Part shown: piece by piece, positions 25,869 through 59,007 of the stretch | Numbering within the stretch: the first letter of the stretch is position 1 | Layout: each line of letters opens with the position of its first letter | DNA from: a bacterium | GTDB taxonomy: Bacteria; SAR324; JACQKK01 | DNA length: 64,000 nucleotides | Assembly: GCA_965205845.1 (NCBI GenBank) | Contig: CBDBIG010000003.1 | Coordinates: forward strand, 670,305-734,304 | Reading direction: 5' to 3' | Program-made: the position numbers and the translations under genes | The notes under the pieces: model-generated | Seen by the model: the letters and a program-made list of their open reading frames with translations, nothing else | The model's database searches: none | Told to the model about the DNA's origin: nothing

Positions 25869-25889
25869 ACACAAATAAAAGGGGAAAAA

Positions 25890-27371: not shown

Positions 27372-27393
27372 ACACAGATAAAAGAAGACAGAA

Positions 27394-28701: not shown

Positions 28702-28964
28702 GCGATAGGGATAAAGGTACGCCTACAAGGGCCAATGCGAGAAGTTTCGGAATGTTGCTTGACGCTTGGCCTTTGTGTTTTTGTGGTGGGGTTTGCAGGG
28801 CTGTGTTTTCCGGAAAATTTGTTACAGTTTCGCTTTTGTTGCGCTGATACATGGCATTGAAACCATCCCCTCCTCTTTATAATTTTAAAAACCACCGTTT
28901 AACCTATATCACTACTGATTAACATCAACCAGGAGCAACAATTTTGGTTTCTCAAGCTTCAAAT

Positions 28965-29783: not shown

Positions 29784-29829
29784 GAGTTGACAAATTTTAA
29801 AACCTTATTTGTGAAAGGAGTCCCTATCT

Positions 29830-31071: not shown

Positions 31072-31078
31072 GCCAGCA

Positions 31079-31277
31079 TGGAATTGAGCGGTCTTCGAGT
31101 CCTGATTACAGGTGCTGGTTCGGGGCTGGGCGAAGCCAGTGCTGGACACCTTGCTTTTTCAAGGCGCAAAACCTTGTTTGCTCGACATGGATGCCGTGCG
31201 TGTTCAAAAGGTGGCCAGTCGGTTAAACGCCCCCCACGCTGTGGCAGATGTCTGTGATGAGGGTGCCGTTCAACAAG
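31079..31277 (+). pseudogene. Truncated duplicate of the 5' end of the SDR gene (about the first 62 codons), fused at the duplication junction to the 3' end of livF sequence.
   Basis: atggaattgagcggtcttcgagtcctgattacaggtgct...ggtgccgttcaacaag is ~95% identical to 32592-32790, then switches to taccgcaagcgctggttgtgagag (= 29760-29783). Confidence 0.8.
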
Positions 31278-31343
31278 TACCGCAAGCGCTGGTTGTGAGA
31301 GTTGACAAATTTTAAAACCTTATTTGTGAAAGGAGTCCCTACT

Positions 31344-32585
31344 GTGGCCTTTTTTGATTCAAAAGAAACGCGCTCGATGGACCAAAGAACATCGGAGCAA
31401 TTACAGCAGCTTAAAGAAATTATTACCCACGCAAAGAAAAACTCTCTCCAGCAAGCAAAACGTTTGCGTGGCTTCCATCCCAGCACATTGAAGGGCGTGG
31501 AGGATTTGCAGTCCTTCCCAGTGTTGTACAAGGCCGATCTTGCCAAAGTCCAAGCAGAAAATCCCCCTTTTGGCGATTTAAACGCCGCAGCTGCTGGAGA
31601 ATTGGGGCGTATTTATCGTTCTCCTAACGGAGTGGTGGACGTAGAGGGTCCAAATGCGGGTGACTGGTGGCATTATGCCCGTGCTTTGTACGCAGCGGGA
31701 TTGCGCAAAGGTGATTTGGTGCACAACAGTTTTTCTTACCACCTGACTCCCGGAGGGATGATGTTGGACAGTGGAGCACGGGCATTAGGGTGCACGGTAT
31801 TTCCGGCGGGTCCGGGCAATACGAGCGTACAGGCCGAAATGTTGAGTTATTTGCGTGCAAGTGCCTTTGTTGGTGTGCCTGAAACTTTGAACGTCGTGCT
31901 CAAAAAAGCGGATGAGTTGGGGTATGATGTGAGCTCTCTTACCAGAGCCCTTGTGTCAGGTGGCCCTTTGTTTCCGTCTGTGCGCCGGATGTTGGACGCC
32001 CGTGTCATTCAGGTGCGCCAGGCCTATGCTACGGCTGATGTGGGGGTGATCTCTTATGAGAGCGGCGTCGAGGATGGCATGGTGGTCGATGAGGATGTAC
32101 TGGTTGAAATTGTGCGTCCGGGCACGGGTGATCCTATGCCGGTAGGAGAGGTGGGTGAGGTTGTGGTAACCACGCTTACCTCGTGGCAAAAGCCGATGAT
32201 CCGTTTTGCTACTGGGGACCTTTCTGCCGTGCTACCGGGGCAAAGTGCTTGTGGTCGCACCAATATCCGCCTTAAAGGCTGGCTTGGACGCGCCGACCAA
32301 ACCACCAAAGTGCGCGGTATGTTTGTCTATCCAGCGCATGTAGATGTCGTGCTGAAGAGATTGAAATTGACTGGCCGTGCTCGCCTCGAAATCGATCGCA
32401 AAGGAGAACGTGATACGATGGTGCTCAAGGTGGAACATACCCAGCCTGATTCGAGTTTGGCACAAGCACTGGCTGATTCGCTGCAAGCGGTGACGGGCTT
32501 GCGTACCGTCGCCCAAGTTGTGACACAAGGCAGTTTAGCCAACGATGGCAAAATTATTGACGACTTACGCGATTATGAGAATTAA
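31344..32585 (+). CDS. PaaK-like CoA ligase, copy 2 (recent duplicate; probable GTG start).
   Basis: ~97% identical to copy 1. The ATG of copy 1 is replaced by 'actgtggcc'. The ORF is open upstream to 31302 through the junction. Confidence 0.7.
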   Translation: MAFFDSKETRSMDQRTSEQLQQLKEIITHAKKNSLQQAKRLRGFHPSTLKGVEDLQSFPVLYKADLAKVQAENPPFGDLNAAAAGELGRIYRSPNGVVDVEGPNAGDWWHYARALYAAGLRKGDLVHNSFSYHLTPGGMMLDSGARALGCTVFPAGPGNTSVQAEMLSYLRASAFVGVPETLNVVLKKADELGYDVSSLTRALVSGGPLFPSVRRMLDARVIQVRQAYATADVGVISYESGVEDGMVVDEDVLVEIVRPGTGDPMPVGEVGEVVVTTLTSWQKPMIRFATGDLSAVLPGQSACGRTNIRLKGWLGRADQTTKVRGMFVYPAHVDVVLKRLKLTGRARLEIDRKGERDTMVLKVEHTQPDSSLAQALADSLQAVTGLRTVAQVVTQGSLANDGKIIDDLRDYEN

Positions 32586-32591
32586 GCCAGC

Positions 32592-33341
32592 ATGGAATTG
32601 AGCTGCCTCCGAGTCCTGATTACAGGTGCTGGTTCGGGGCTGGGCGAAGCCAGTGCTGGACACCTTGCTTCCCAAGGCGCAAAACCTTGTTTGCTCGACA
32701 TGGATGCCGTGCGTGTTCAAAAGGTGGCCAGTCGGTTAAACGCCCCCCACGCTGTGGCAGATGTCTGTGATGAGGGTGCCGTTCAACAAGCACTACAGAC
32801 ATTTGGTCGTGTTGATGCACTGGTTAATTGTGCGGGCATTGCCCCCGCGCGTAAGGTGTTGGGCTCGCGTGGAACCCACCCGCTGGAGGATTTTCAGAAA
32901 GCGATTGCCATCAACTTGGTGGGGAGCTTTAATGTGGCAAGGCTTGCCGCACAGATGATGGCGCAAAACACCCCCAATGCGCATGGAGAAAGGGGAGTTA
33001 TCATTCACACCGCCTCGATTGCTGCTTTTGATGGGCAAATTGGCCAAGCAGCCTATGCGGCCTCGAAAGGGGGTATTGTGAGTATGACTTTGCCCATGGC
33101 AAGGGAATTGGCCAAGCAAGGCATACGGGTATTAAGCATTGCCCCAGGTCTCTTTAAAACGGCCATGATCGAAGTTTTTTCCAAAGAAATCCAGCAAACC
33201 CTTGTACAAACAGCATTGTTTCCAGCACGCTTGGGTGCCCCGGGGGAGTACGCCATGTTGGTGCAAAGCATTCTTACCAACCCCATGCTTAATGGCACCA
33301 CCATTCGTCTTGATGGCGCGGTGCGCCTGCCTCCCCAATAG
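32592..33341 (+). CDS. Short-chain dehydrogenase/reductase, 3-hydroxyacyl-CoA dehydrogenase type-2-like.
   Basis: TGAGSGLG Rossmann motif, catalytic YAASK, 249 aa. Confidence 0.8.
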   Translation: MELSCLRVLITGAGSGLGEASAGHLASQGAKPCLLDMDAVRVQKVASRLNAPHAVADVCDEGAVQQALQTFGRVDALVNCAGIAPARKVLGSRGTHPLEDFQKAIAINLVGSFNVARLAAQMMAQNTPNAHGERGVIIHTASIAAFDGQIGQAAYAASKGGIVSMTLPMARELAKQGIRVLSIAPGLFKTAMIEVFSKEIQQTLVQTALFPARLGAPGEYAMLVQSILTNPMLNGTTIRLDGAVRLPPQ

Positions 33342-38983: not shown

Positions 38984-39943
38984 ATGTCCAAAACGCCCAA
39001 AATACCCGCCACGCCGCCCCCTGAAGAAACCACGGATGAAACTCAATCTGCCAGTGGTTCTGCTGCGGAAGACATGAGCGATTCTGTGTATGTGCCACCG
39101 CCATACGGCCCTCAAGAAGCCCTTGTCGTGATTGGCAAAAAACTGCGCCAGGTACGCGAAGCACGGAGCATGAGCCTTGAAGACTTGGCAGCAATGACCC
39201 GCATTAGCCGTCGTTCTTTACAACGCATTGAAGAAGGGTTGCTCGACAAACTGCCCAACCTCACCTTTGTGCGCGGCTTTATCCGCAATTGCTTAGAGGT
39301 GTATGGCATGGAAGAATCCAGCCTAGCCGAGGAATTGCGTATCTTGGGTGGCGCGAGAAATGGCTACCAGCCACAGAAATTGCATAAAAATGACTATGCG
39401 TGGACCACCACCCTTTTAAAAAAAGAAACATCCCAAATACCACTGCTTAAAATAGTTTCTTATGTGGGGATTGCGGTGGGCCTGTTGTGGGCCGTTTACT
39501 TGTTGTATCCCTTTCATACCCAACTTAAAGAACCCACACCCACAACGGTTGAAGCGGAAAAGGTTGAGCAAAATGCTGGTTTTTCCGCGGGAGGAAGCCT
39601 TGGTTCGACAGTGCCAACCCAACCCACATCTGCCAACCAAGGCTCTAACTCTCAAACACAGACCCCACCTTTGGTGGTGGAAAGTTTGTTGTTGGAGGTC
39701 CACAGTACGGAACGCACGTGGTTACGTCTGTCCATCGATAAGGCACCGCCCGTGGATGTCTTGATTCAAAAAAATCATCGGGCTGTGTGGCGCGCCGAGA
39801 GCGGGTTTCGCCTAATTATTGGCAATACTGCCAACGTGCGTCTGGCTTTAAATGGGGAGAGTATCCCTTTAAAAACCCAGGATGGTCAGCTAAATGCCAA
39901 CCTTATCTTAGACCGTACCATGTTAAGGCAGCTCGAAAACTAA
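38984..39943 (+). CDS. rodZ: Cytoskeleton protein RodZ (HTH-XRE, TM, C-terminal DUF4115).
   Basis: HTH (LRQVREARSMSLEDLAAMTRISRRSLQRIEEG), PNLTFVRGFIRN motif, single TM (IVSYVGIAVGLLWAVYLL) and C-terminal beta domain. Confidence 0.8.
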   Translation: MSKTPKIPATPPPEETTDETQSASGSAAEDMSDSVYVPPPYGPQEALVVIGKKLRQVREARSMSLEDLAAMTRISRRSLQRIEEGLLDKLPNLTFVRGFIRNCLEVYGMEESSLAEELRILGGARNGYQPQKLHKNDYAWTTTLLKKETSQIPLLKIVSYVGIAVGLLWAVYLLYPFHTQLKEPTPTTVEAEKVEQNAGFSAGGSLGSTVPTQPTSANQGSNSQTQTPPLVVESLLLEVHSTERTWLRLSIDKAPPVDVLIQKNHRAVWRAESGFRLIIGNTANVRLALNGESIPLKTQDGQLNANLILDRTMLRQLEN

Positions 39944-39944
39944 C

Positions 39945-40480
39945 TGCCCTTGTGCTCAAAACTGCGGGTCATCAGAGCGTACCATGTTAAGGCACCGCCA
40001 ACTTGTGCTCAAAGCCGCGGGTCATCAGAGCGTACCATGTTAAGGCACCGCCAACTTGTGCTCAAAACTGCGGGTCATCAGAGCGTACCATGTTAAGGCA
40101 CCGCCAACTTGTGCTCAAAACTGCGGGTCATCAGAGCGTACCATGTTAAGGCACCGCCAACTTGTGCTCAAAACTGCGGGTCATCAGAGCGTACCATGTT
40201 AAGGCACCGCCAACTTGTGCTCAAAACTGCGGGTCATCAGAGTGTACCATGTTAAGGCACCGCCAACTTGTGCTCAAAACTGCGGGTCATCAGAGCGTAC
40301 CATGTTAAGGCACCGCCAACTTGTGCTCAAAGCCGCGGGTCATCAGAGTGTACCATGTTAAGGCACCGCCAACTTGTGCTCAAAACTGCGGGTCATCAGA
40401 GTGTACCATGTTAAGGCACCGCCAACTTGTGCTCAAAACTGCGGGTCATCAGAGCGTACCATGTTAAGGCACCGCAAAAA
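39945..40480. repeat. 53-bp tandem repeat x ~10, immediately after the rodZ stop codon; the unit is derived from the rodZ 3' end.
   Basis: 'accatgttaagg' recurs at 39980, 40033, 40086 ... 40457 (period 53). The first unit overlaps the last rodZ codons (cgtaccatgttaaggcagctcgaaaactaa). Variants are aaaactgc/aaagccgc and agagcgt/agagtgt. Confidence 0.9.
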
Positions 40481-40915
40481 CGCATCCTTGTGGTATTTAA
40501 GCACGCGAAACGGGGTCACCAATTTGCCGTTGATGTCGCTTATAAGCACTTCACATTTTGCTGGTTTTTGTCGGGCAAAAAACATCTGGGCTGCCCCCAT
40601 AAAGGACTCAGCAATAACATGTGTGTCGCACGCCATCTAATGATGGCGCCCAACCTTTTTGCAAAGCCTATGCGCTTAACATGGCTTTATCTCCGCCTTG
40701 CCTGCCCAACGCCCGCTCATGGGGAGGCTTTTTTGGTTGGTAAAGGGGATGGATGAAGAGGCAGCATCAAGTTTTGCGTGTATGCTTCGGGGTCGCCCTG
40801 CAGGCACATGGAGATCCCTGCGCCGCCAAATGAGGACACCGATGATGCTCCTTTGAAGAGGTGAGTGCTTTTGGGCGCACAAAAGCAGCTGTAAGAGGGC
40901 TTAGAGCGGGTGCGA

Positions 40916-48509: not shown

Positions 48510-51500
48510 TTAGCTTAGGTTTTGCGATTTGTGTGTTTTGCTATGGCCAAGCACCCGTTGGCAGGCGAGCACAAAAGTGCCATTTTGCAATGCGTGGTGG
48601 CTTTGTGCATCCATGTAAAAATGGTCGCTAATTTCGCGGCCCACATTGGCCAAGGTAGCCTGGGGAACCTCCACTTGAAATGCATCAAACAACTGACTTA
48701 ATTGATAAAAAACAAAAGGCGCATCATGGAGCTGGATATGTATATAAGGCAGCCTTGTGGGTTTACGTTGATATCCTTCGGGGGTTTCTTGGACAGCGTA
48801 GCTTTTATCGTCTGCGGTATAAAAATGAATCCGAGGTTTTGCCCCAGTTGGCGCTGCACGATGAGAAGGAAACGCGTCGACACCTGGTGTACTCGAACCC
48901 TGATCGACGTCAGGGCTGGGAGACAATGTGGGTGGGGTAAGCAGCGGGGGCGGCACATTGCGAATGCTCCATTCCATGTCACGGTTCCACGATTGGGGCA
49001 AAGAATCGATCGCTGCGGTTTGAAAGGCATAACAATACCCTGTCGCACCCCCTTTAAACCGAACAGGATTAAACTTGCCATTTACAATGTTAATCGCATG
49101 CACGCTGCGGCGGCTGAGTGCATAGGCCACCCGCGTATGCGATTGTTTTAAATTGCGCGTAAAAATTAAAATTTCCGTAAGACCCGTGGCGCTATTGGGC
49201 ATCGAATCAACCAGGACATCATGGCTACGAAACCCCTCAAAACGCATGCTTTGCTTGGCCAATATGGCAGGTGGACAGCGCATAAGGTGGCGATTTGGAA
49301 ATGCATGAAAAAACCAATCTAACAATGCCCCTTCTTTTTGGCTTAACAACAACAAGGTGGGCTGGGGGAGCAAGGCTTGCATGCGCTCTGCAAAGCGTTT
49401 TTCCAAGTACTGGACTTTTTGGTCGTTTGAATCGCCCATGGTTACCTGCAATTGCAAAGCTTCTAGGTTGGCCACATGCCCTTGCAATTGCTGCCATACA
49501 TCGGGGGCGTGTTGGCGCAAAGGGGCATAAAGGGCAGGTCCCATCCCCTGTTCGATGCATTTTTGCACCATCAGCTGAAAGCGGGTTTCGTATTGTTGTT
49601 CATTTTTTTGCACATCCAAACGCTGGTTAATCAGCTCCAAGGCCTCGTTCTCATTGGGAAAACCACGCATCTCTTCGAGCATCATGCAGGTGCGGGCAAA
49701 ACGGTCGCGCAAGGCTTGCTGCTGCGGATAGTGTAAAGGGCCACACGCCCCCAAAGCGGCCAAGTTCATCATAAACAAAAGCAGCAGCGTTTCTAAGCGT
49801 TGTTCAACCAAGGCAAAGCAATGGGCAAGGGCTTCGTCGGTATAGCCCTTGTTGCCAAGCAATACCAAACTGCGGTGATGCAACACCAACAACGTGGCTT
49901 TTTCGCGCATTCCTTGCTGGGTAAACCCCATTTGTGCCATGCCGTGTTGCAAGCATTCGACCCCTGCTTGATGCTGCTTGGCCAGGTCTTCCATCGCTGC
50001 AATGCCACGCGTTCCTTCCAAGTTAGGATGGCTTTCAGGGGCCCCAAAATAGCAGCACACATGCAACAAGGCAGCGCATTTTAAGGCCAAAATATCCTCA
50101 TCACGCAACATCTCATGCCACTGGGGGTATTCTTCTGCCAGGGAATTGAGTTCAATTTGGATTTGGGCTAGGGCTAAAAAAGCGGTCTGATGCAAGGCTG
50201 TATGGCTTTGGTAAGGACCTTGTGGGTATTTGCGCGCAGAATCGATGACGGGCAAAAAGCAACCCAGCAAGCTGCTGGTATGCCAATCAAAAGGATTGGA
50301 GATGGCGCAGGTTTGCTCCAAAATATTCATGGCATGGGGTGCCAGCAAAATCTGCTGCCACCACGTATTTTCCTCGGCTGTAAGCGCAGGCAAAAGGGTT
50401 TTAGCGAGAGGCAGATGGGGAAGAATTTGGCACAAAGCATCTTGCAATGCTGGCGAGAAACACAAACCCGCTTGCGCTGCATGGGCTAGGGTTTCAAGCA
50501 AGGCCATGCGCGTTATGGTAGGTGGCACCAGCACCTTGGGTGTGGCTTTTATCCCTTGGAGTAAAGAGGCTTGCATGGCAGGGGTGGCAACGCCGTGTGT
50601 GGTGGTGGCCTCAATGGCCAAAATATGGCGTTGGGCGGGGTAAATATGGAGGGTTACATGGCTTAGCTGGGTGAGGGTGGTGGGTTCTAACGCGCGTTGA
50701 ATCAGGGTTTTGGCGGTATTGTGTGCCTGTTGCAATAGTTGATGCAACAAGCACCACCCTGCTCCAGGGTTGGTGGTGTGCGGGTGCTGTGTAAAGGGAG
50801 GCGGCATGGCCACGCGATTGCGCTTTGCTGCTGCCAAATCAAACAACTGCTGGGAACGTTTGCTACTTTCGTGCTGGGTAAAGTCCGTATGATGGGCACT
50901 ATTGGCGGCACGCATCACCCAGGCCAATTCAAGGGTACGCCCTAAATGTGCGCATTCCCATACCGAGAGCAACCCTTTTTTGTGGGCTGTTTGCAGCAAG
51001 CTGGCGGGGTGAAAATTGCCCTGGGAGGATCCCCAGGTGGCACCTGCCAACCACAGGGCGTTTTGAATGGCCCGCAAGCCCCCTTGCCCATTTTTTAAGC
51101 GCAAACCCCCTCCGCCACTGGGCTGCAGAGCAAGAGCGCTGAATTCTTGCATTTTTTTTTCAATGTACGCATTGCTGGGGAAAATATCCCAGACTTGTTG
51201 GCGTAATGCGCTCAAAATACCCACATCCCCCCCAAGGTTACGCCCTTCTAAAATGGAGGTTAAAGTGTGCAAGGTTTTAGGTTTGGTAAAGCGCGAAAGA
51301 TCCTCGCCCAGTTCAAAGTACTGGTGGGCAGGGTTAAGGCCTACCGCGCGCAAAATTTCTTGCATCCGCACCACCACCTCACGCAGCAGCAGCGTTTTTG
51401 CAGAGGAATACGCGCGATCGCTCCCCGTGGCACCATGCTCCGCCATGCCATCTTCTTCGAGAACGATACAAGAACCGAGATCAAGGTCGGAATCAAAGCA

Positions 51501-52292
51501 CAGTTCGCCGCGTCCATAGCCTCCACGGGCAAACATGCATAGCTGTGCATGAGCCCAGTGTGGTGTGGGTTCCCAATCATTGAGAGCTGCCACGGTATTT
51601 TCAAGGGCGTGTCGTCGTGCTGCCTCTTGTTTGGCTGCGTTGTTTTTGCGGGCACTTTGCGGTGTTTTTAGGGGCATCGCTTGGCGATTGATGTTGCTGC
51701 GTAAGCGGGCTATGGATACCTCGCGTGAACGGTTGAGGCTCGAGTGACTGCGTATTTTTTTTTGGCGCACGGTCGCCAACCCTTGCTGAGCTTGGGCAAG
51801 CATCACAAAACGCATGGCCTCAAGTTCATTTAGGGCCTGGGTATGTACAAATTGAAGCAGCCCGTCCAATGCCAAGGCCATATCATGAATGGGCGCCATG
51901 GCAATGGGGTGGCTTCGCAGAAAATTTTGGCGTAACGAGGCTTGAATTTTCTTCCAAGCAGCACCGCCTTCACGGGTTAGCAAAGTGGTTCGCGCCTCGA
52001 GCCATTGACACCAGTCGCTTTCGCTGTGGCAGGCCTTTGGCAAGGCTGCTAACTGCTCATCCAAGGTTTGCAGCAATTTTTGGGTGAACGAGACAACGGG
52101 AGTGCTGGCTGTCGCTTGATAACGTAAACCTTGCAGCAGTTCTGTGAGTGCTTGTTGGGGTTCCATAGAGAGCCATGGGAGTTGGGATGGAGGGGCATTT
52201 TTAAGAAGCAACACTCTAGCATAAAGTGTACTGTGTTTAAGCATGCTTGGCATTTGCGCCCGTTGTACCCGTGCCCAAACAGGTGCTGACAT
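48510..52292 (-). CDS. glnD: GlnD-like [protein-PII] uridylyltransferase family protein (nucleotidyltransferase, HD and C-terminal ACT-like domains), unusually long at 1260 aa.
   Basis: NTase motif FARGGYGRGELCFDSDLDLG, HD-like region (LKCAALLHVCCY), C-terminal ACT-like (HIQLHDAPFVFYQLSQLF). A ~250-aa N-terminal extension has no recognised motif. Confidence 0.6.
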   Translation of the reverse strand: MSAPVWARVQRAQMPSMLKHSTLYARVLLLKNAPPSQLPWLSMEPQQALTELLQGLRYQATASTPVVSFTQKLLQTLDEQLAALPKACHSESDWCQWLEARTTLLTREGGAAWKKIQASLRQNFLRSHPIAMAPIHDMALALDGLLQFVHTQALNELEAMRFVMLAQAQQGLATVRQKKIRSHSSLNRSREVSIARLRSNINRQAMPLKTPQSARKNNAAKQEAARRHALENTVAALNDWEPTPHWAHAQLCMFARGGYGRGELCFDSDLDLGSCIVLEEDGMAEHGATGSDRAYSSAKTLLLREVVVRMQEILRAVGLNPAHQYFELGEDLSRFTKPKTLHTLTSILEGRNLGGDVGILSALRQQVWDIFPSNAYIEKKMQEFSALALQPSGGGGLRLKNGQGGLRAIQNALWLAGATWGSSQGNFHPASLLQTAHKKGLLSVWECAHLGRTLELAWVMRAANSAHHTDFTQHESSKRSQQLFDLAAAKRNRVAMPPPFTQHPHTTNPGAGWCLLHQLLQQAHNTAKTLIQRALEPTTLTQLSHVTLHIYPAQRHILAIEATTTHGVATPAMQASLLQGIKATPKVLVPPTITRMALLETLAHAAQAGLCFSPALQDALCQILPHLPLAKTLLPALTAEENTWWQQILLAPHAMNILEQTCAISNPFDWHTSSLLGCFLPVIDSARKYPQGPYQSHTALHQTAFLALAQIQIELNSLAEEYPQWHEMLRDEDILALKCAALLHVCCYFGAPESHPNLEGTRGIAAMEDLAKQHQAGVECLQHGMAQMGFTQQGMREKATLLVLHHRSLVLLGNKGYTDEALAHCFALVEQRLETLLLLFMMNLAALGACGPLHYPQQQALRDRFARTCMMLEEMRGFPNENEALELINQRLDVQKNEQQYETRFQLMVQKCIEQGMGPALYAPLRQHAPDVWQQLQGHVANLEALQLQVTMGDSNDQKVQYLEKRFAERMQALLPQPTLLLLSQKEGALLDWFFHAFPNRHLMRCPPAILAKQSMRFEGFRSHDVLVDSMPNSATGLTEILIFTRNLKQSHTRVAYALSRRSVHAINIVNGKFNPVRFKGGATGYCYAFQTAAIDSLPQSWNRDMEWSIRNVPPPLLTPPTLSPSPDVDQGSSTPGVDAFPSHRAAPTGAKPRIHFYTADDKSYAVQETPEGYQRKPTRLPYIHIQLHDAPFVFYQLSQLFDAFQVEVPQATLANVGREISDHFYMDAQSHHALQNGTFVLACQRVLGHSKTHKSQNLS

Positions 52293-52756
52293 GCTCTAAG
52301 CATCAACCATAGGGTAATCTACGCTTCTTTATGCTAAAATCATGCTACGGCGGCGTTTTAGCAAGGCCGGAATATCCCAAAAAATGCAGTTTTTGTTGGC
52401 TACGTAAAACCACATTTGTGTTACCCTAGATCCTATTAAGGTGTGCTGTGTACGCGGGATTTGATATCGACCCACTTTCTGCCCGTACTAATGTGGACGC
52501 ACCTTGTTTTGCAACCCTCCCAATTGCAACCCTCCCAATTGCATGGCGTGCCAAGGGAATTGGGGATACGACCCTGGCCAAGGCAGCAGGTTGTTGAGGG
52601 TGCTAGGGATTGTGCTTGGGTTGGCGGGGGATGCCTAAATTTTGAACCATTTTTGTGGACTGCCATCCTTTCCGCACCATGGCACGACATAAAAAACAAC
52701 GGGGTTTTGCTATTTTTACACCATTGTCGCTTGTCACTACCCCCCATGCCCTTAGC

Positions 52757-52917
52757 CCTTAGATTGACCTTTTTAGAATAAATGCCTTTACAAAGTACTT
52801 GGCTATGCATAAATACCAAAGCCTTTGTGAGCCTTTTAAAAAAAGCATGAGCAAGCCCTTTGACCCCCGTTAAAAAAACCATCACTCCCCCTCAAATTGT
52901 TAAAAACTCAGAGAAAA
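52757..52917. repeat. Left copy of a ~160-bp direct repeat (rnr leader / 5' coding sequence) bracketing the MTase cassette.
   Basis: ctaccccccatgcccttagcccttagattgacctttttagaataaatgcctttacaaagtacttggctatgcataaataccaaagcctttgtgagcc... is ~93% identical to 54719-54900. Confidence 0.9.
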
Positions 52918-53840
52918 AATGGATTAACAAAATCCATACTGGTGATGCGCAAAAAATATTAAGGGACATGCCATCAGATTTTATTGATCTAAGTTTTTGG
53001 TCCCCGCCATATTTTGTAGGTAAGGAGTATGAGAAGTACCTATCTTTTGATGATTGGAAGAGACTGCTTGAAGGGGTTGTTTGTGGGCATGCCCGTGTTA
53101 TGAGGGACGGTGCTTTTATGGTGATAAACATCAACGATATTTTATGCTTTCCTGATCCGAGCATGCCTAGGTATATGTCTAACAATATTGGTAATAAGAG
53201 GGTACCCGTCACCAGGCAAGATGCATTAGATGCCAAACGTAAAAACCCTGATGCAAACCGTTATGAACTAGCAAAAATTCTTGGGTGTAGCGAACAAACT
53301 GTACAGCGCAGACTTGAGCATAACAATATACGTGGTGGGAAGCAGGCTACCGCCACAAAAGTTTTGTCAGTAGCTGGAATGCTACAAGCGTGGAGTGAAG
53401 CAGCGGGGCTCTATCTGTATGACCGCCGCATTTGGCATAAAGACCCATGCTGGGCAAATAGCCGATGGCATAGCAATTCATATAGATCGATTGATGAGTT
53501 TGAATATCTTTTCATATTCTGGAAACCAGGCATTGTTGACATTGACCGGTCTCGCCTTAAAAAAAACGAATGGGCTGAATGGGGGTCACGGGGGGTTTGG
53601 AATATAAAATCAATTCGCCACAATAACCGCCATGAGAGTGAATTTCCTGAAATGCTGGCGGAACGAGTTATACGCCTTTTGTCTAATCCTGAAGGTGTTG
53701 TGCTAGACCCGTTTGTTGGTTCCGGCACCACAACTGCCGTTGCCCGCCGCCTCAAACGCAGATATGTTGGCATAGACAGGCTTGATAAATATGCCGTAAT
53801 TGCCAGGGATAGAACGAATGCAATCGATAAAACGGATTGA
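52860..53840 (+). CDS. Beta-class DNA methyltransferase (SPPY...DPFVGSGTT) with an inserted HTH-like segment, in a lower-GC cassette.
   Basis: IDLSFWSPPYFVGKEYEK (motif IV region resembling the 6.5-kb pseudogene) ... EFPEMLAERVIRLL...VVLDPFVGSGTTTAVARRLKRRYVGID. The ORF opens at TTG inside the duplicated rnr leader; the first codons (TPVKKTITPPQIVKNSE) mirror the RNase R N-terminus. Confidence 0.85.
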   Translation: MTPVKKTITPPQIVKNSEKKWINKIHTGDAQKILRDMPSDFIDLSFWSPPYFVGKEYEKYLSFDDWKRLLEGVVCGHARVMRDGAFMVININDILCFPDPSMPRYMSNNIGNKRVPVTRQDALDAKRKNPDANRYELAKILGCSEQTVQRRLEHNNIRGGKQATATKVLSVAGMLQAWSEAAGLYLYDRRIWHKDPCWANSRWHSNSYRSIDEFEYLFIFWKPGIVDIDRSRLKKNEWAEWGSRGVWNIKSIRHNNRHESEFPEMLAERVIRLLSNPEGVVLDPFVGSGTTTAVARRLKRRYVGIDRLDKYAVIARDRTNAIDKTD

Positions 53841-54459
53841 GGATGCCGAGAGATCTTGCATCAGATTAGTGTCTCGCGCCCTACGAGATTATAGGGATAA
53901 GGCGGTTGAAATCTTCAGAGAAGAATCCGATAAACCTGGTAATATAGCAGAAGATGTAACAAGGGAAGCTATGGATGCTCTTGGTACGTCACGGGTTCCG
54001 ATACGGCTGTATGGTAAAGTTGATGATAAACGTGCCGCGATAGTCTTTTTGTCGGATAGAGAAGTTGAAGTCGCCATGATGGTTGACCCCAAAGCTGAGA
54101 AGGATGGAAATACCGCGACCATTCAAATGTCTCAGACATCAATGCAAATTAGGCAATATAGGCAGGGGGAGGAAATTTGTGTTAATGGTACGCTACCGCC
54201 GTTTATTGAAAGAGAAGGCAAAAAACTTCAAACCATAACCATAATTGTAAAATATATTTACACCGAAATAACGACGCAGAAGTTTATCTTGGAAAAGATT
54301 AAAGTCGCCTGCATACCTAACGGTCTACTTCAGGAAAGTTACAACCCCAATGCACAAGATGGTTTTTGGAGGGTAGGCCGTAATGCACCTTCATTGGGGG
54401 AGGATTTTCGGGTGCGCCTCTCATTTAGTGATCTTCAAAAAAAGCAGAATGGCGAGTAG
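53818..54459 (+). CDS. Unknown protein translationally coupled to the MTase; candidate cognate restriction endonuclease or other partner (unclassified).
   Basis: ATG at 53818 overlaps the MTase stop (53840) by 23 bp; 214 aa, lower GC, no recognised family. A possible PD-(D/E)xK-like stretch (VDDK...SDREVEVAMMVDPK) is speculative. Confidence 0.45.
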   Translation: MQSIKRIEDAERSCIRLVSRALRDYRDKAVEIFREESDKPGNIAEDVTREAMDALGTSRVPIRLYGKVDDKRAAIVFLSDREVEVAMMVDPKAEKDGNTATIQMSQTSMQIRQYRQGEEICVNGTLPPFIEREGKKLQTITIIVKYIYTEITTQKFILEKIKVACIPNGLLQESYNPNAQDGFWRVGRNAPSLGEDFRVRLSFSDLQKKQNGE

Positions 54460-54718
54460 TTGAGGTTTAAACAACTTCCAAATGGCAAATTTGAGGGGGA
54501 TATCAGACCATAAGCAAGAACAACTCACCTCAAAACCAATGATAGAGGCAAAACCTCACAGGTATTAACCGTTAAAAGCAAAACGTCGGGCAGGCGTGCG
54601 CATGCAAGCCTGCGCCCGAAAATTTGGCAACATGAATCTTGGATTAGGTCGCGGTGAGAAAAATTAGCGGCGCTTAATAACACAGAAAAAAATGTGACTT
54701 TGGTATATAATTCCCTCT

Positions 54719-54900
54719 TAACTACCCCCCATGCCCTTAGCCCTTAGATTGACCTTTTTAGAATAAATGCCTTTACAAAGTACTTGGCTATGCATAAATA
54801 CCAAAGCCTTTGTGAGCCTTTTAAAAACAGCATGAGCAGCCCTTTGACCCCCGTTAAAAAAACCGTCCCCCCCCTCGAAATTGTCAAAAATTCAGAGAAT
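54719..54900. repeat. Right copy of the ~160-bp direct repeat (authentic rnr leader and start).
   Basis: See the left copy. The right copy has intact atgagcagccctttgacccccgttaaaaaaacc (MSSPLTPVKK); the left copy has a 1-bp insertion (agcaagccc) that breaks that frame. Confidence 0.9.
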
Positions 54901-56973
54901 AACACATCTGCCCAAGAACAAACATGGGAGGGCCCTTTGTTTGTGCACCCTGGCGGCTTTGGTTTTTTGGAATGCGAGGAACGCCAGGAATCCTTGTTTA
55001 TTCCCGCACGTTTTATGAAGGGAGCCCTCGATGGCGACTGGGTGTTGGCGGGGCTCCTTCCGCCCGAAGCTAGGCGCGAGCGTGAGGCTGGGCAAGTGCT
55101 TGAAGTGCTGCGCCGCCGTTGCACCCGATTGGCTGCCCGCTTAGAGTGGGATCAAGGCGAATTATGGGCCCTGCCTTTTAATGCCAAACTCCCCGATGTA
55201 TGGGTAGAACCCGCCAGCATGCCCAAGGCCAAAGATGGCGATGTGGTCGAGGTGGAAATTCACTATTATCCGCAAGATTCGAAAGAGTCCCCCGAAGGGC
55301 GAGTAGCCAAAGCATTACCAAACAAGGACAACCCTTATGCATGGGCGCAGCGGGTTACCCTCGATCTTAATCCACCACTAGAATTTCCTAAAACGTGCTT
55401 GAAAGAGGCCTCCCAAGCCAGCGAGGGCATCACCTATAAAGGGCGTGAAGATTTATGCCATTTGCCTTTTGTTACCATTGATGGCGAGGATGCACGCGAT
55501 TTTGACGATGCCATTGCTTGGATAGCCAACAAAGAAGGCAGCCACGCAGGCGGCGTGTTGTATGTGGCCATTGCTGATGTGGCAGAATTGGTGGCACCCC
55601 GAAGTGCTATGGATGAGGAGGCCTGTACACGCGGATTTAGTTATTATTATCCGACCCACATGGTGCCCATGTTACCCGAGCGTCTGTGCACCGATTTATG
55701 CAGCCTACGCCCCCAGGTAGCACGCCACACCCTTACTTGCGAAATGCATTTGGATGCCCTGGGCAACACCCTGCAAAGCCGCGTGTTTGAAAGCGTGATT
55801 GAAAGCCGTGCAAGGCTAACCTATGCCCAAGTGATGCAATTATTTGAGACACAGCGCGCCAGCGGCCCCATTACCCAAGAAATCGCCAAGATGCTGTTCC
55901 GCTTGCGCCCTATGGCAAAAATCATGGAGCACATGCGTCAAAACCGTGGTGGGCTTCGCTTTACTTTTCCTGAAAGGCGCTTTGAAATCAACGACCAAGG
56001 GATGCCCGTCAACATTCACTTGGCATGGCCCAGCGAGAGCACCAAACTCATTGAACAGTGCATGCTTCAGGCGAACGAGGCGGTGGCAGAATACGCAGCC
56101 CAGCAAAAACTCCCGTTTTTACGTCGTGTACACGAAGCCCCTGCGGCCGATGCCTTGGCCACCTTGCAAGAAAATTTGGGCGCTTTTGGGATTCCTATCT
56201 CCCCCAAAGGGCTCGCCACCCCCGGGGTTTTGGGGCAGGTGCTTAAAGCCATTGCAAAGCACGATGCCCAAGAACGCCTCGAAATCATGGTGCTGCGCGC
56301 GTTGAAGCAAGCGCGCTATGCCGCGACATCTTTAGGGCATTTTGCCTTGGGCGCCCAGCATTACGCACATTTTACCTCGCCCATTCGACGCTACCCCGAC
56401 CTGTTGCTTCACCGCGTGCTTAAAGCCCATTTGCGCAAAGCCCCCAAAATCCCCCAGCTCCCTTCCCATGCGGGTTCGTTACTTTCCCAAGCGGAACGCG
56501 TGGCCGATGAAGCGAGTGGGCGCGTGAACAAGCTGTTTCAGGTGTTGTATATGGAAGGCTACCTTGGTAAAAGTTTTATGGCGACTGTGGCCAATATTTC
56601 CGACCAAGGGGCATGGCTGCGCTTACAAGACCCACCCGTTGAAGGCTTGCTCCCCTTGGTGCTTTTTCCCAAACAAACGCGCTACCAACAAGATGGCAAG
56701 TGTATTCTTGTGCCCAAGCAGCCAGCCATCGAAATTGGAACCTTGCTCGAATGCCAGCTGGTGCATGCCGAGCGCCAAAGCTATAGCCTTGAATTTTTGT
56801 ACGTTAAGCAGGTACCGTCCGCCGATCCCCCCAAAAAGCGAGCACTAAAACCGCCCAGCCCCGTGCTAAAAAAAAGAGCAAAAAGAGCCATCCCCAAAAG
56901 AATGCAGGCCTATAAGGGGAAGGGCACCCCCCATCCATCCCTAGCCTTATTTCGTTCTGGGGATACGCCATAA
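54832..56973 (+). CDS. rnr: Ribonuclease R (RNB-family 3'-5' exoribonuclease).
   Basis: N-terminal OB region (HPGGFGFLE), RNB catalytic domain (HFALGAQHYAHFTSPIRRYPDLLLHR), C-terminal S1 and basic tail. The ORF opens at 54784; the likely start is MSSPL at 54832. Confidence 0.9.
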   Translation: MSSPLTPVKKTVPPLEIVKNSENNTSAQEQTWEGPLFVHPGGFGFLECEERQESLFIPARFMKGALDGDWVLAGLLPPEARREREAGQVLEVLRRRCTRLAARLEWDQGELWALPFNAKLPDVWVEPASMPKAKDGDVVEVEIHYYPQDSKESPEGRVAKALPNKDNPYAWAQRVTLDLNPPLEFPKTCLKEASQASEGITYKGREDLCHLPFVTIDGEDARDFDDAIAWIANKEGSHAGGVLYVAIADVAELVAPRSAMDEEACTRGFSYYYPTHMVPMLPERLCTDLCSLRPQVARHTLTCEMHLDALGNTLQSRVFESVIESRARLTYAQVMQLFETQRASGPITQEIAKMLFRLRPMAKIMEHMRQNRGGLRFTFPERRFEINDQGMPVNIHLAWPSESTKLIEQCMLQANEAVAEYAAQQKLPFLRRVHEAPAADALATLQENLGAFGIPISPKGLATPGVLGQVLKAIAKHDAQERLEIMVLRALKQARYAATSLGHFALGAQHYAHFTSPIRRYPDLLLHRVLKAHLRKAPKIPQLPSHAGSLLSQAERVADEASGRVNKLFQVLYMEGYLGKSFMATVANISDQGAWLRLQDPPVEGLLPLVLFPKQTRYQQDGKCILVPKQPAIEIGTLLECQLVHAERQSYSLEFLYVKQVPSADPPKKRALKPPSPVLKKRAKRAIPKRMQAYKGKGTPHPSLALFRSGDTP

Positions 56974-57082
56974 GCGGTTCTTTTCAGCCTTGCCCGCAAA
57001 GGCTGGCCCAGCCACCACAACCATGGCAGTAGATCCTATTTAGAACGCAAACAAGAAGGCAATCTGCCACCAACCACTAGGG

Positions 57083-59007
57083 TTGTGCCCATTCACATGC
57101 TTTGCCACCACTAAGGACAATGGCGCAAAAAAGCGGGTGTGCCCATTCACATGGTTTTACACTGGTCAAAATTTAATGGTTGTGCCCATTCACATGCTTT
57201 GCCACGGGTCAAAATTTAATGGTTTTTTGTGGTTTTTCAACGGTTTACGGGCAGTGTGTTTACGCTAAAAAGGTGGTGGCACGTGTCCCGCCCAAAAAAC
57301 GGTGGTATGCGGGTTTGCGCGTTTTTCGTTCACATGGCGTAAGACTTTTTCGAGGGCCCTGTAGAGGGAATTCTAAAGGGTTGGAAAATGTTCGAAAGGG
57401 ATTTACAATGCCGCGTCCCGTGGCGATCACCGCAAAGTCTTCTGCGGGGCTCATGTCGGCAGGGCAGGTGGTTTTTACGCTTAAGGGCTTTTTTTGCTGC
57501 CAGCCCGCCAACGCGCATCGGGCCTTCGCCAATGGCTAACCATTGGATAGAAATATTGGCTTTTTGTGCAATAAGCACACATTTTTCGATGCCGGGTTTA
57601 ATAGCGCCGCTCACATACTGCCCTATTAAGTTCCCATCAATACCTACTTTTGGGACAGCGCACGCTTGGCTACAGGCGTTTGCAACAGGCCGCTACTCTG
57701 CATCGCTGGCACATACCCAGCCTCCCCACCTTAAAGCGCCGTGTTTTGGCCGAGCTCCCCCACCTGAGTGCGCACCCTTGCCCGCCGCGGCGCAACACCT
57801 CTTAATGCCACATTTCCCTCGCAAAAGCGTTTGCTTAAAAGACCTTTTCGCCTTGGCCCTCGTTTGTGGCGATGGCCACCGCTTTGATGTTTTTACCCAA
57901 TGGCCAAAGGTCAAAAAGCCCTGCAGTCCATGCTCAAAGGCCATTGCAAGATATTTACGAGGGGCAAATTCCTCAGTTGGCGCCTCGGGCGGAGCGAGAA
58001 CAGCGACCTGGTGCGCGTTGCCTTTTCAAGCATTTTGCGCGACTTTGGCGTGCCTTTAGGCATGCTGCGCGATAACAGCCCGCGCTCGGGCGGAGCAAAG
58101 CCACACGCCCCCCAGCGCTTTCGCTTTAAAATCAAAGCAAGAAGACCCCCTATGGTTTGCTCACGGCTTTGGGCTGCACCATCCACTGGGCACAGCCTTA
58201 TCACGGCCAGGCAAAATCGATTGAGCGCGCCTTTTTAGACCTGTGCGAAAGCATCGCCAAACATCCCGCCTGCCCAGGCGCATACACGGGCAACAGCCCC
58301 ACGCAACAATTCCCTCATCAAGCCCGGGAATTACACGCAAAAAGCGATTCCCATTGCCACCTTTCGCGCTCTGGTCGAGCAGCAAATAGGTTACCACAAT
58401 GCCCATCCAAGGGCGCACCGGGGGGCTTATGTAACGGGCGTTCTTTTGATGCGGTGTTTGCACAAAGTTACGCAGCCAGCCCCATCACCCAGGCCACCGC
58501 CCAGCCAGCAGCGTAGTTTTTTACGCGCCAGCCGAGCAAATCAAGGCCCACAAATACGATGCCAGGGTGCGCATCTTGAGTGCAAACCTTGGTCAAGACG
58601 TGCTCAACCGCTACGATGCAAAAAACACCCCCTTCTACCTCGACTTAGCCCTACCACGGGCACGAAAAGCGACTACGGCAAGGTTTTTTTGTTGAGCGAA
58701 GACTTTGAAAGTCTCGCAACGGTTAAAGGGCAAGGCAAGTTTCTACTGAGCATCACTAACAAAGGGGGCAAGCGATTGATGGTAAAATCGATAGGTAAAA
58801 AAGGTGCCATCTGAAATTAAACGGCGAAACCGACGGTGGCAAACCATGGGAAAGAAGATGCAAAACCATGTGAACGTTTACACTAAGCATTCATTGCCAT
58901 AAAGGGATTGAATTTTATACGCAACAAAACATGCCAATATAAATAGGCTCCAGAATGACCAGTGGCAAAGCATGTGAAAGGTGACAAGGGGTAAACCATG
59001 GGAATGG
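57083..59007. mobile_element. Decayed DDE transposon remnant (~1.9 kb) with inverted termini and three subterminal 15-bp repeats at each end. The interior carries frameshifted rve-type integrase fragments.
   Basis: Left end: gtgcccattcacatg at 57085, ~57136 and ~57183. Right end inverted: gtggcaaagcatgtgaa (58963-58979) is the exact reverse complement of ttcacatgctttgccac (57093-57109), with further catgtgaa / catgggaa copies at ~58857 and ~58996. Interior frames carry DNSPRSGG (cf. DNGxEF) and AQPYHGQAKSIERAF (cf. PY.PQ.KG.IER) in different frames. Confidence 0.6.

What the first reader, a model, noticed from the sequence alone, without database searches (positions are those of the whole stretch)
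52757..54900. Lower-GC methyltransferase plus unknown-partner cassette inserted into the rnr leader, bracketed by ~160-bp direct repeats and borrowing the RNase R N-terminus
A two-gene module (SPPY DNA MTase 52860-53840, and a 214-aa unknown ORF overlapping its stop by 23 bp) sits between glnD-like and rnr. It is flanked by two ~93%-identical copies of a ~160-bp segment, which is the promoter/5'UTR and the first ~18 codons of rnr. The MTase reading frame begins inside the left copy, so its first residues (TPVKKTITPPQIVKNSE) are a diverged copy of the RNase R N-terminus (SPLTPVKKTVPPLEIVKNSE). In the left copy a 1-bp insertion kills the original rnr ATG frame. Composition is visibly more AT-rich than the flanks. 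This is the signature of a horizontally acquired R-M-like or defence cassette that duplicated its target and captured a host promoter. The partner protein has no family I can recognise, so it could be a novel restriction nuclease or a different effector.
Basis: partly seen in the sequence, partly recalled or inferred. Interest (0 to 1): 0.78.

Follow-up and report, generated by a model that had tools for sequence, protein, structure and literature searches.

The report
SfiI-type restriction-modification cassette beside rnr
An ordinary two-gene restriction-modification system of the well-known SfiI/BglI family has been inserted at the start of the host's RNase R gene, duplicating about 182 bp of that gene's leader and first codons, which is a previously described way for such systems to enter genomes.

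Summary
A 182-nt direct repeat (52736-52918 and 54721-54902; 94.5% identical, one indel) brackets a 1.8-kb segment of lower GC (43.6% against 50.6% for the window). The segment carries a beta-class SPPY DNA methyltransferase and a 213-aa ORF that overlaps the methyltransferase's 3' end by 23 nt.

The "unknown partner" is not unknown. It is an SfiI/BglI-family type II restriction endonuclease (Pfam PF11487, E 1.4e-44; SfiI structure 2EZV, E 1e-17). All four catalytic residues are conserved, and hundreds of homologues are 213-235 aa long.

The same M-R pair occurs elsewhere on a plasmid contig, inside an IS1595-type transposon, and in unrelated chromosomal sites. Comparison with those pairs shows that homology to native methyltransferases begins at residue 19-20. 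The first 18 residues therefore derive from rnr.

This architecture matches "insertion with long target duplication", already described for restriction-modification systems (Nobusato 2000; Furuta 2010).

Two new details:
- A +1 insertion puts the rnr-derived ATG out of frame, leaving only a TTG start for the methyltransferase.
- An A7 run (A8 in the closest homologue) frameshifts the endonuclease and removes a family-wide conserved C-terminal Trp-Arg strand. The system may be attenuated or decaying.

No close relative of the host exists in the databases searched, so an empty site could not be examined. Verdict: a new member of a known kind, of low to moderate interest.

The parts
52736..52918 (+). 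Left copy of the 182-nt direct repeat: the rnr leader plus about 23 rnr codons, with an extra A at 52853 and a C-to-A change at 52843
52847..52873 (+). Short ORF left by the frameshifted rnr-derived ATG (8 codons, then TAA). It is 22 codons if translation starts at ATG 52805, the homologue of the publicly annotated rnr start. It overlaps the M TTG start at 52860.
   Evidence: sequence; frame analysis; public rnr start inferred from P0001 (727 aa)
52860..53840 (+). Beta-class N6/N4 DNA methyltransferase, 326 aa from TTG. Residues 1-18 derive from rnr. SPPY (motif IV) lies at 53001-53012 and DPFVGSGTT (motif I) at 53706-53732. The public annotation starts it at Met37 (290 aa).
   Evidence: Pfam PF01555 E 1.6e-37; PADLOC MTase_II E 6.6e-123 over residues 20-320; 74% identity to the L002 methyltransferase from residue 19; family alignment; P0241
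53818..54459 (+). SfiI/BglI-family type II restriction endonuclease, 213 aa. Catalytic residues E45, D69, D90 and K92 are present. It overlaps M by 23 nt, and its last 4 residues (QNGE) are out of the ancestral frame.
   Evidence: Pfam PF11487 E 1.4e-44; 2EZV E 1e-17 and profile E 9.8e-34; 929 homologues; alignment; SfiI catalytic residues from PMC548270
54437..54443 (+). A7 homopolymer (A8 in the closest homologue, L002). This is the site of the -1 frameshift in the endonuclease gene.
54444..54470 (+). Ancestral endonuclease C-terminus, now out of frame. It reads AEWRVVEV*, which matches the family consensus KAxWRVVxI and SfiI ACPWRLQEL.
   Evidence: in the model of the 75%-identical homologue this segment is a strand at pLDDT about 97
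54471..54720 (+). 250-nt AT-rich tail of the insert (42% GC). It has no homology to the sequence downstream of R in other loci. It contains a GC-rich hairpin at about 54586-54618, which is followed by a T-rich run only on the minus strand.
54721..54902 (+). Right copy of the direct repeat: the functional rnr leader and first 23 codons
54832..56973 (+). Intact RNase R/RNase II-family exoribonuclease gene (713 aa from this ATG; 727 aa from ATG 54790 in the public annotation). This is the target gene, preserved by the duplication.
   Evidence: Pfam RNB E 1.7e-94; TIGR00358 above cut-off; P0001 100% identity

Best explanation
This is a horizontally acquired type II restriction-modification gene pair of the SfiI/BglI family. 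It consists of a beta-class amino-methyltransferase (SPPY, probably m4C like M.SfiI), followed by and overlapping a PD-(D/E)XK endonuclease.

The expected mechanism for this family is as follows. The methyltransferase modifies an interrupted palindromic site in host DNA. The endonuclease cuts unmodified copies of that site in incoming DNA. The 23-nt gene overlap couples endonuclease translation to that of the methyltransferase.

The 1.8-kb unit (52919-54720) entered the chromosome at the 5' end of rnr by an insertion that duplicated 182 bp of target. That target comprised about 111 nt of leader plus the first 23 codons. As a result rnr stayed intact, and the methyltransferase lost about 13 native N-terminal codons, so it now reads out of the duplicated rnr leader.

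Shown here: the family assignments, the conserved catalytic residues, the junction positions, the foreign composition, and the mobility of the same pair in other contexts.

Inferred, not shown: the order of events, the use of the rnr leader for expression, the m4C chemistry, and the recognition site.

Two single-nucleotide indels suggest the system is attenuated or beginning to decay rather than fully active. One is the +1 insertion at 52853, which puts the rnr ATG out of frame. The other is the -1 change in the A-run at 54437-54443, which removes the conserved C-terminal Trp-Arg strand of the endonuclease.
For: Family assignment:
- Endonuclease: Pfam PF11487, 153 bits against a cut-off of 25. 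SfiI 2EZV gives E 1e-17 for the single sequence and 9.8e-34 for the family profile.
- The SfiI residues E55, D79, D100 and K102 (PMC548270) align with E45, D69, D90 and K92.
- The model of the 75%-identical homologue superposes on SfiI at TM 0.90 and on BglI at TM 0.76.
- Methyltransferase: PF01555, 130 bits; PADLOC MTase_II E 6.6e-123. SPPY precedes FxGxG, which is the beta-class order. M.SfiI is a beta-class m4C methyltransferase (PMC3874165).

Mobility of the pair:
- The M-then-R pair, with the same short overlap, recurs in L002 (chromosomal, different neighbours), L004, and the IS1595-associated loci L005 and L006. The R gene also occurs at the end of a TrfA/ParA plasmid contig, L003.

Junctions and composition:
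- Native homology starts at M residue 19-20 and ends at the ancestral R stop codon.
- Repeat. Composition.
- The architecture meets the published criteria for R-M insertion with long target duplication. Those are R and M both in the insert, insert shorter than 20 kb, and duplication longer than 30 bp. Reported repeats range from 46 to 423 bp (PMC2853133).

Frameshift in R:
- The alternative frame reads AEWRVVEV*. WR is present in every homologue aligned (17, 30) and in SfiI itself.
- The rest of the window has long intact ORFs covering about 87% of the sequence, which argues against a generally error-ridden assembly.
Against: - No related genome with an empty site could be found, so the insertion event and its direction are inferred from one sequence.
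- The differences between the repeat copies are clustered: 2 in the first 145 nt and 8 in the last 37 nt (Fisher p = 5e-5). A single duplication followed by uniform drift does not predict this.
- No promoter-like site was found in the repeat.
- The methyltransferase has only a TTG start with no clear Shine-Dalgarno sequence, and the public annotation starts it at Met37. Activity of both genes is therefore unproven.
- GGCCN5GGCC sites are not depleted in the window (5 observed against 3.0 expected). That says nothing either way about specificity.
Confidence: 0.8

Rival explanations
1. The cassette is the same SfiI-family R-M, but it is a dead remnant. The methyltransferase has lost its proper start and the endonuclease its conserved C-terminus, so neither protects nor restricts. 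The locus is on its way to becoming pseudogenes.
For: - The +1 insertion at 52853 closes the rnr-derived ATG frame.
- TTG at 52860 is the only canonical start upstream of the conserved WINKIHTGD block, and the public annotation starts M at Met37.
- The A7 frameshift removes the Trp-Arg strand, which is present in every homologue aligned and in SfiI.
- A decayed Mu-type transposon lies just 3' of rnr, so decaying foreign DNA exists in this neighbourhood.
Against: - Both ORFs are otherwise uninterrupted (326 and 213 codons), with all catalytic and AdoMet-binding motifs intact.
- N-terminal tails of family methyltransferases vary freely, so a TTG-initiated protein could be fully active.
- The effect of losing the last 8 residues of the endonuclease is untested.
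Confidence: 0.35
2. The two single-nucleotide indels are consensus errors of the assembly. The real sequence encodes an in-frame rnr(1-22)-methyltransferase fusion starting at ATG and a full-length endonuclease ending in AEWRVVEV.
For: - The endonuclease indel lies in a 7/8-A homopolymer, the classic error site.
- Correcting each indel by one base restores a longer, consensus-like product.
Against: - The 52853 insertion is an A-to-AA change, not a long homopolymer.
- The rest of the window shows long intact ORFs at about 87% coverage, with no sign of widespread frameshifts.
- The public protein set derived from the same contig carries the same frames (P0121 213 aa, P0241 290 aa).
Confidence: 0.2
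3. The direct repeats were not made by a staggered-target insertion. Either (a) a circular intermediate carrying M-R plus a piece of an rnr 5' region from a related donor integrated by a single homologous crossover (Campbell type), or (b) M-R was already resident upstream of rnr and a later local duplication or gene conversion copied the rnr 5' segment over the methyltransferase's own 5' end.
For: - Both routes give the observed end product.
- The clustered divergence at the 3' end of the repeat (8 differences in 37 nt against 2 in 145 nt) looks like a mosaic of sequences of different ages, or like a conversion tract.
- Possible microhomology at the left junction: rnr has CAGAGAAT, and the native methyltransferase of L002 has AAGAGAATGG at the equivalent position.
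Against: - Under (a), a uniformly diverged donor segment would make the two copies differ along their whole length, yet the first 145 nt carry only two differences, one substitution and one indel.
- (b) needs two events where one suffices.
- Neither can be separated from the main model without an outgroup, and none is available.
Confidence: 0.25

Closest known systems
SfiI restriction-modification system (R.SfiI, PDB 2EZV/2F03; M.SfiI, a beta-class m4C methyltransferase)
   Same: - The endonuclease aligns with SfiI residues 8-227 and keeps E55, D79, D100 and K102.
- The fold of a 75%-identical homologue superposes on SfiI at TM 0.90.
- The partner is a beta-class SPPY methyltransferase, like M.SfiI.
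   Different: - Identity to SfiI is only about 30%.
- The protein belongs to a shorter subfamily (213-235 aa) that lacks SfiI's last 30 or so residues.
- The predicted specificity residue S210 of SfiI is Ala here, although R218 is kept. The recognition site may therefore differ from GGCCN5GGCC.
- Tetramer (type IIF) behaviour is unknown.
- The C-terminal WR strand is frameshifted away in this copy.
BglI (PDB 1DMU), a type IIP dimer cutting GCCNNNN^NGGC
   Same: It belongs to the same structural superfamily branch. There is a weak Pfam Endonuc_BglI hit (E 3.5e-4) and a Foldseek TM of 0.76. Several homologues are named 'BglI family' by NCBI.
   Different: It is much more distant than SfiI (16% identity in the structural alignment), and BglI is about 300 aa.
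R-M 'insertion with long target duplication' (Nobusato et al. 2000, Gene 259:99; Furuta et al. 2010, NAR 38:2428, PMC2853133)
   Same: - An R+M unit without its own mobility gene is flanked by long direct repeats of a sequence that is otherwise unique.
- The repeat length (182 bp) falls within the reported 46-423 bp range, and the insert GC differs from the host.
- The duplication leaves the target gene intact.
   Different: - The published cases were validated against an empty-site genome, and here none exists.
- The left junction lies inside the methyltransferase ORF, so the duplicated host leader and N-terminal codons became the 5' end of the methyltransferase gene. I did not find this detail in the passages I read.
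The same M-R pair carried on other vehicles: the IS1595-type transposon in L005, the IS1595 remnant in L006, and the TrfA/ParA plasmid contig L003
   Same: The endonuclease is 63-67% identical and the methyltransferases are related. Where M is present (L005, L006), the gene order and short overlap are the same.
   Different: Those copies sit next to a transposase or on a replicon. In L005 they are bounded by 36-nt inverted repeats, not by a long direct target duplication. The window copy has no transposase and no inverted repeats.

Membership tests
SfiI/BglI-family type II restriction endonuclease (Pfam PF11487) | Sequence match above the curated family threshold | tested here: met
   153.1 bits against a cut-off of 25, E 1.4e-44; PADLOC REase_II E 2.3e-17; 929 homologues, some named SfiI-family or BglI-family by NCBI or JGI
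SfiI/BglI-family type II restriction endonuclease (Pfam PF11487) | PD-(D/E)XK catalytic residues (SfiI E55, D79, D100, K102) | tested here: met
   They align with E45, D69, D90 and K92 of the 213-aa protein (residue list from PMC548270). E, D69 and K are invariant and D90 nearly so in the family alignment.
SfiI/BglI-family type II restriction endonuclease (Pfam PF11487) | SfiI-like fold | tested here: met
   Tested on the 75%-identical homologue P0122, not on the window protein itself. The AF2 model has pLDDT 89.1. Foldseek gives 2EZV E 1.5e-20 with TM 0.90, and 1DMU with TM 0.76.
SfiI/BglI-family type II restriction endonuclease (Pfam PF11487) | Complete polypeptide, including the conserved C-terminal Trp-Arg strand | tested here: not met
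   The window ORF ends ...LQKKQNGE*. The WR motif is encoded out of frame at 54444-54470 because of an A7 run where the closest homologue has A8.
SfiI/BglI-family type II restriction endonuclease (Pfam PF11487) | Site-specific cleavage of an interrupted palindrome (SfiI: GGCCNNNN^NGGCC), acting on two sites as a tetramer | not testable with these tools
   This needs enzyme assays. The site count in the window is uninformative (5 observed against 3.0 expected).
Beta-class N4-cytosine/N6-adenine DNA methyltransferase (Pfam PF01555; M.SfiI-like) | Family match, and circular-permuted motif order with motif IV (S/DPPY) N-terminal to motif I (FxGxG) | tested here: met
   PF01555 at 130 bits against a cut-off of 26.7. 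SPPY lies at residues 48-51 and FVGSGTT at residues 285-291. PDB hits include cytosine-N4 methyltransferases 8S9N and 1BOO.
Beta-class N4-cytosine/N6-adenine DNA methyltransferase (Pfam PF01555; M.SfiI-like) | m4C product (as opposed to m6A) | tested here: inconclusive
   An SPPY motif and an SfiI-family partner suggest m4C (M.SfiI is m4C, PMC3874165). NCBIfam hits are to adenine methyltransferases but fall far below their cut-offs. Methylome data are needed.
R-M insertion with long target duplication (Furuta et al. 2010 criteria) | Both R and M are inside the insert, the insert is shorter than 20 kb, and the direct duplication is longer than 30 bp | tested here: met
   M and R lie in a 1.8-kb insert with a 182-bp duplication. 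Criteria are quoted.
R-M insertion with long target duplication (Furuta et al. 2010 criteria) | No mobility gene in the unit, and the repeat is not a multicopy element | tested here: met
   There are only two ORFs between the repeats. The repeat occurs twice in the 64-kb window. Its copy number in the whole genome could not be checked.
R-M insertion with long target duplication (Furuta et al. 2010 criteria) | A related genome shows the empty site with a single copy of the target | not testable with these tools
   The next-nearest RNase R is 43% identical. The genome-contig scan gave only a 28% hit. An exact-match scan of the metagenome contigs for the repeat gave nothing.
C-protein-controlled type II R-M | A separate small HTH controller gene next to R or M | tested here: not met
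   There is no third ORF between the repeats. The only HTH-like signal is an internal, family-conserved block of the methyltransferase (residues about 119-161).

The most novel reading that the evidence does not exclude
The two 'defects' are regulatory devices rather than decay. In this reading the cassette has no controller protein and has instead wired itself into the host's rnr leader. The methyltransferase would be made at a low, fixed level by termination-reinitiation, from the rnr-derived short ORF (stop at 52871-52873) onto the overlapping TTG at 52860. The A7/A8 tract at 54437-54443 would act as a slippage-prone switch that turns the endonuclease's C-terminal strand on or off, giving phase-variable restriction. 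The duplicated leader would then co-regulate restriction-modification with RNase R.
Probability: 0.07. Interest if true: 0.5.

Novelty: new member of a known kind. Interest (0 to 1): 0.25.

Why it matters
The practical value is correct annotation. The "hypothetical" 213-aa ORF is an SfiI-family restriction endonuclease. Its partner methyltransferase is probably mis-started in the public annotation (290 aa from Met37, where a TTG start gives 326 aa).

The locus is also a clean example of an R-M unit entering a genome with a long target duplication, in a host with no close sequenced relative. Here the duplication supplies the 5' end of the methyltransferase gene. If the host is ever cultured or its methylome read, the locus predicts either one m4C motif at an interrupted palindrome or, if the system is dead, none.

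It does not open a new class of defence system.

Tried and rejected
Searches that returned nothing useful:
- Empty-site search. The genome-contig scan with RNase R returned only a 28%-identical Nomurabacteria hit. An exact scan of metagenome contigs with a 43-nt piece of the repeat returned nothing.
The host stays unidentified.
- DNA search of the cassette against plasmids and phages gave only an 83-nt, 76% match to a Geoalkalibacter plasmid methyltransferase gene, and no phage match.
- Rfam on 52300-55000 gave nothing credible; the one hit was an archaeal snoRNA model at E 0.19.
- The promoter/terminator scan found no sigma-70-type site in either repeat copy.

Ideas considered and dropped:
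- The endonuclease is N-terminally truncated. The Pfam coordinates 87-285 of 292 suggested this, but the alignment to SfiI starts at residue 8 of both proteins.
- The 250-nt tail belongs to a conserved mobile unit. There is no homology downstream of the R stop codon among six loci.
- The hairpin at about 54586-54618 is a terminator. Its z-scores are only -1.2 and -2.0, and a T-run follows it only on the minus strand.
- Long direct repeats flank the pair in L002, L005 or L006. None were found; L005 has inverted repeats instead.
- The cassette belongs to the Mu-like element 3' of rnr. That element has its own inverted ends at 57081-57220 and 58835-58987, and rnr lies between the two.
Full report
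**Observation**

The region was read directly and scanned for ORFs and repeats. A direct repeat is present at 52736-52918 and 54721-54902. After removing one extra A at 52853, the two copies align over 181-182 positions with 10 mismatches, which is 94.5% identity. The 9 nt upstream of each copy are only loosely similar. The repeat occurs only twice in the 64-kb window and is not low-complexity.

Between the copies lie two co-oriented ORFs. The first runs 52860-53840 (326 aa from TTG). The second runs 53818-54459 (213 aa from ATG) and overlaps the first by 23 nt. After them comes a 250-nt tail (54471-54720).

The insert (52919-54720) is 43.6% GC. The window is 50.6%, rnr 54.2% and the upstream 1260-aa gene 51.9%. 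GC3 is 0.40 for both insert genes against 0.57 for rnr.

**What the genes are**

*The first ORF is a beta-class amino-methyltransferase.*
- Pfam PF01555 scores 130 bits against a cut-off of 26.7.
- A PADLOC type II methyltransferase model matches at E 6.6e-123 over residues 20-320.
- SPPY (residues 48-51) lies N-terminal to FVGSGTT (residues 285-291).
- PDB relatives include N4-cytosine methyltransferases.

- Pfam PF11487 scores 153 bits against a cut-off of 25, E 1.4e-44.
- SfiI (PDB 2EZV) matches at E 1e-17 for the single sequence, aligned from residue 8 in both proteins. The family profile matches at E 9.8e-34.
- The active-site residues proposed for SfiI are E55, D79, D100 and K102 (PMC548270). 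They correspond to E45, D69, D90 and K92, which are invariant or nearly invariant among homologues.
- The protein database holds 929 homologues, mostly 213-235 aa. Some are named "SfiI family" or "BglI family type II restriction endonuclease" by their sources.
- An AlphaFold model of the 75%-identical homologue P0122 has pLDDT 89. It superposes on SfiI at TM 0.90 and on BglI at TM 0.76.
- M.SfiI is described as a beta-class m4C methyltransferase (PMC3874165), so the gene pair matches the SfiI system in both components.
- SfiI cuts GGCCNNNN^NGGCC and BglI cuts GCCNNNN^NGGC (PMC4081073). The site recognised here is unknown. One predicted specificity residue of SfiI (S210) is Ala in this subfamily, while R218 is kept.

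**The pair is a mobile unit**

The closest pair, L002, has a methyltransferase 74% identical and an endonuclease 75% identical. It sits in a 2.07-Mb contig between unrelated genes, with the same gene order and a 20-nt overlap.

Other copies occur in different contexts:
- On a contig with TrfA and ParA plasmid genes (L003).
- Directly after an IS1595-type transposase (L005). There the transposase-M-R unit is bounded by 36-nt inverted repeats.
- After an IS1595 remnant, between recX and alaS (L006).

None of these copies is flanked by a long direct repeat.

**Junctions**

BLASTP against the L002 methyltransferase, the PADLOC model and an 18-sequence alignment all place the start of native methyltransferase homology at window residue 19-20 (KKWINKIHTGD). 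Upstream of that point, family members have unrelated tails of 0-33 residues. The repeat ends at 52918, which is inside codons 19-20. The first 18 residues of the window methyltransferase are therefore rnr-derived and replace about 13 native codons.

On the right side, DNA homology among six loci stops at the ancestral endonuclease stop codon. The 250-nt tail is unique and matches nothing in the plasmid or phage collections. It contains a modest GC-rich hairpin that is followed by a T-rich run only on the minus strand. It may be a scrap of a previous host's sequence.

**How it got there**

An R+M unit with no mobility gene of its own, flanked by a long direct duplication of an otherwise unique target, is what Nobusato et al. 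(2000) and Furuta et al. (2010) call "insertion with long target duplication". They reported it for all R-M types, with repeats of 46-423 bp. Their criteria are R and M both inside the insert, an insert shorter than 20 kb, and a duplication longer than 30 bp (PMC2853133). All three criteria are met here.

The duplication explains why rnr remains intact (RNB, OB and CSD2 domains) even though the insertion point lies within its first 23 codons.

The one criterion I could not test is the empty site in a relative:
- The host's RNase R has no homologue above 43% identity among 5.8 billion clusters.
- The species-representative genome scan gave only a 28% hit.
- An exact scan of the metagenome contigs for the repeat found nothing.

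The surrounding genes are housekeeping (GreA, aspartate-semialdehyde dehydrogenase, acyl-CoA dehydrogenases).

1. *Endonuclease frameshift.* The endonuclease ends ...LQKKQNGE*. All 30 homologues aligned (17) end ...KAxWRVVxI, and SfiI itself has ACPWRLQEL at the same place. In the window this ending (AEWRVVEV*) is encoded at 54444-54470, one frame over. The cause is an A-run of 7 nt at 54437-54443 where L002 has 8. In the homologue model this segment is a terminal beta-strand at pLDDT about 97.

2. *Methyltransferase start.* The extra A at 52853 puts both rnr-derived ATGs (52847, and 52805 corresponding to the publicly annotated rnr start) out of frame. They now open short ORFs that stop at 52871-52873. 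The only canonical start upstream of the conserved N-terminal block is TTG 52860. The public annotation instead starts the protein at Met37 (290 aa). That start would omit a strand-helix element that aligns with a solved homologue (2ZIE).

3. *Clustered repeat differences.* There are 2 differences in the first 145 nt and 8 in the last 37 nt (Fisher p = 5e-5).

The window otherwise has long intact ORFs over about 87% of its length, so I lean towards the indels being real. Homopolymer consensus error still cannot be excluded.

**Interpretation and rivals**

I am confident (about 0.8) that this is an SfiI-family type II R-M cassette acquired horizontally and inserted at the 5' end of rnr with a 182-bp duplication. 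Its current activity is uncertain.

- *Dead or dying remnant (0.35).* Both indels fit this reading. If the methyltransferase were lost first, an active endonuclease would be lethal, so a weakened endonuclease is the expected companion of a weakened methyltransferase.
- *Assembly error at the two indels (0.2).*
- *A different origin of the repeat (0.25).* This could be Campbell-type integration of a circle carrying rnr homology, or a secondary duplication or conversion. The clustered divergence leaves room for either. Against a simple Campbell event, a uniformly diverged donor segment would make the two copies differ along their whole length.

"Promoter capture" is plausible but unsupported. 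No consensus promoter was found in the repeat and no transcript data exist.

**Novelty**

Both proteins belong to well-populated, structurally characterised families, and the mode of insertion is published. The only mildly unusual points are these:
- The duplicated host leader and N-terminal codons became the 5' end of the methyltransferase gene.
- There are two single-base frame changes.
- The divergence between the repeat copies is clustered.

This is a new member of a known kind, and I score interest at 0.25.

Noticed in passing
window 57081-58987: A decayed Mu/DDE_2-type transposon of about 1.9 kb lies immediately 3' of rnr. Three direct end-repeats of about 43 nt sit at 57081-57220, with inverted copies at 58835-58987. 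The transposase is broken over at least two frames (57900-58238 and 58157-58516; Pfam DDE_2 E 8e-4 and 2.5e-6). rnr is thus flanked by foreign DNA on both sides.
   Followed up: partly
window 53214-53342 (M residues about 119-161): The methyltransferase contains an HTH-like block (ELAKILGCSEQTVQRRLEHNNIRGGK). It gives weak Pfam HTH_23 and HTH_AsnC hits and is almost invariant across the whole methyltransferase family. It lies between motifs IV-VIII and motif I, where the target-recognition region is expected. Whether it reads the target site or autoregulates the operon is unknown.
   Followed up: partly
L005 4029-6679: In a Gammaproteobacteria MAG contig, an IS1595-type transposase, the methyltransferase and the SfiI-family endonuclease form one 2.65-kb unit bounded by 36-nt imperfect inverted repeats. 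This is a transposon carrying the R-M pair as cargo. L006 has an IS1595 zinc-ribbon remnant in the same position.
   Followed up: partly
L003 256-903 and neighbours: A 64-67%-identical endonuclease sits at the end of a contig with TrfA, ParA, an RHH antitoxin and NikA-like genes, so this R-M family also travels on plasmids.
   Followed up: no
window 52736-52918 against 54721-54902: Differences between the repeat copies are clustered: 2 in the first 145 nt and 8 in the last 37 nt, p = 5e-5. This suggests a gene-conversion tract, differential selection or a mosaic origin. It is unresolved for lack of an outgroup.
   Followed up: partly
window 52509-52538: A perfect 15-nt tandem duplication, TTGCAACCCTCCCAA x2, lies in the intergenic region between the 1260-aa GlnD-like gene and the left repeat.
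   Followed up: no
window 39843-40584; 1213-1712; 16561-16800; 7150-7348; 1-258: There are several tandem arrays: a 53-nt unit repeated about 14 times, an 84-nt unit about 6 times, an 80-nt unit 3 times, a 47-nt unit 4 times, and a 95-nt unit about 3 times at the window start. Some may lie in coding sequence. They were not examined.
   Followed up: no
window 25600-32800: Five or so ORFs of about 1.5 kb lie in tandem (25890-27197, 27394-28701, 29830-31071, 31302-32585). Stretches between neighbouring copies are 86-99% identical, which suggests a recently amplified paralogous gene family.
   Followed up: no
window 48510-52292 (minus strand): The 1260-aa 'glnD-like' protein has only weak, partial similarity to PII uridylyltransferases (Pfam GlnD_UR_UTase E 0.002; NCBIfam E about 1e-10, far below the cut-offs). 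Its true function is open.
   Followed up: no
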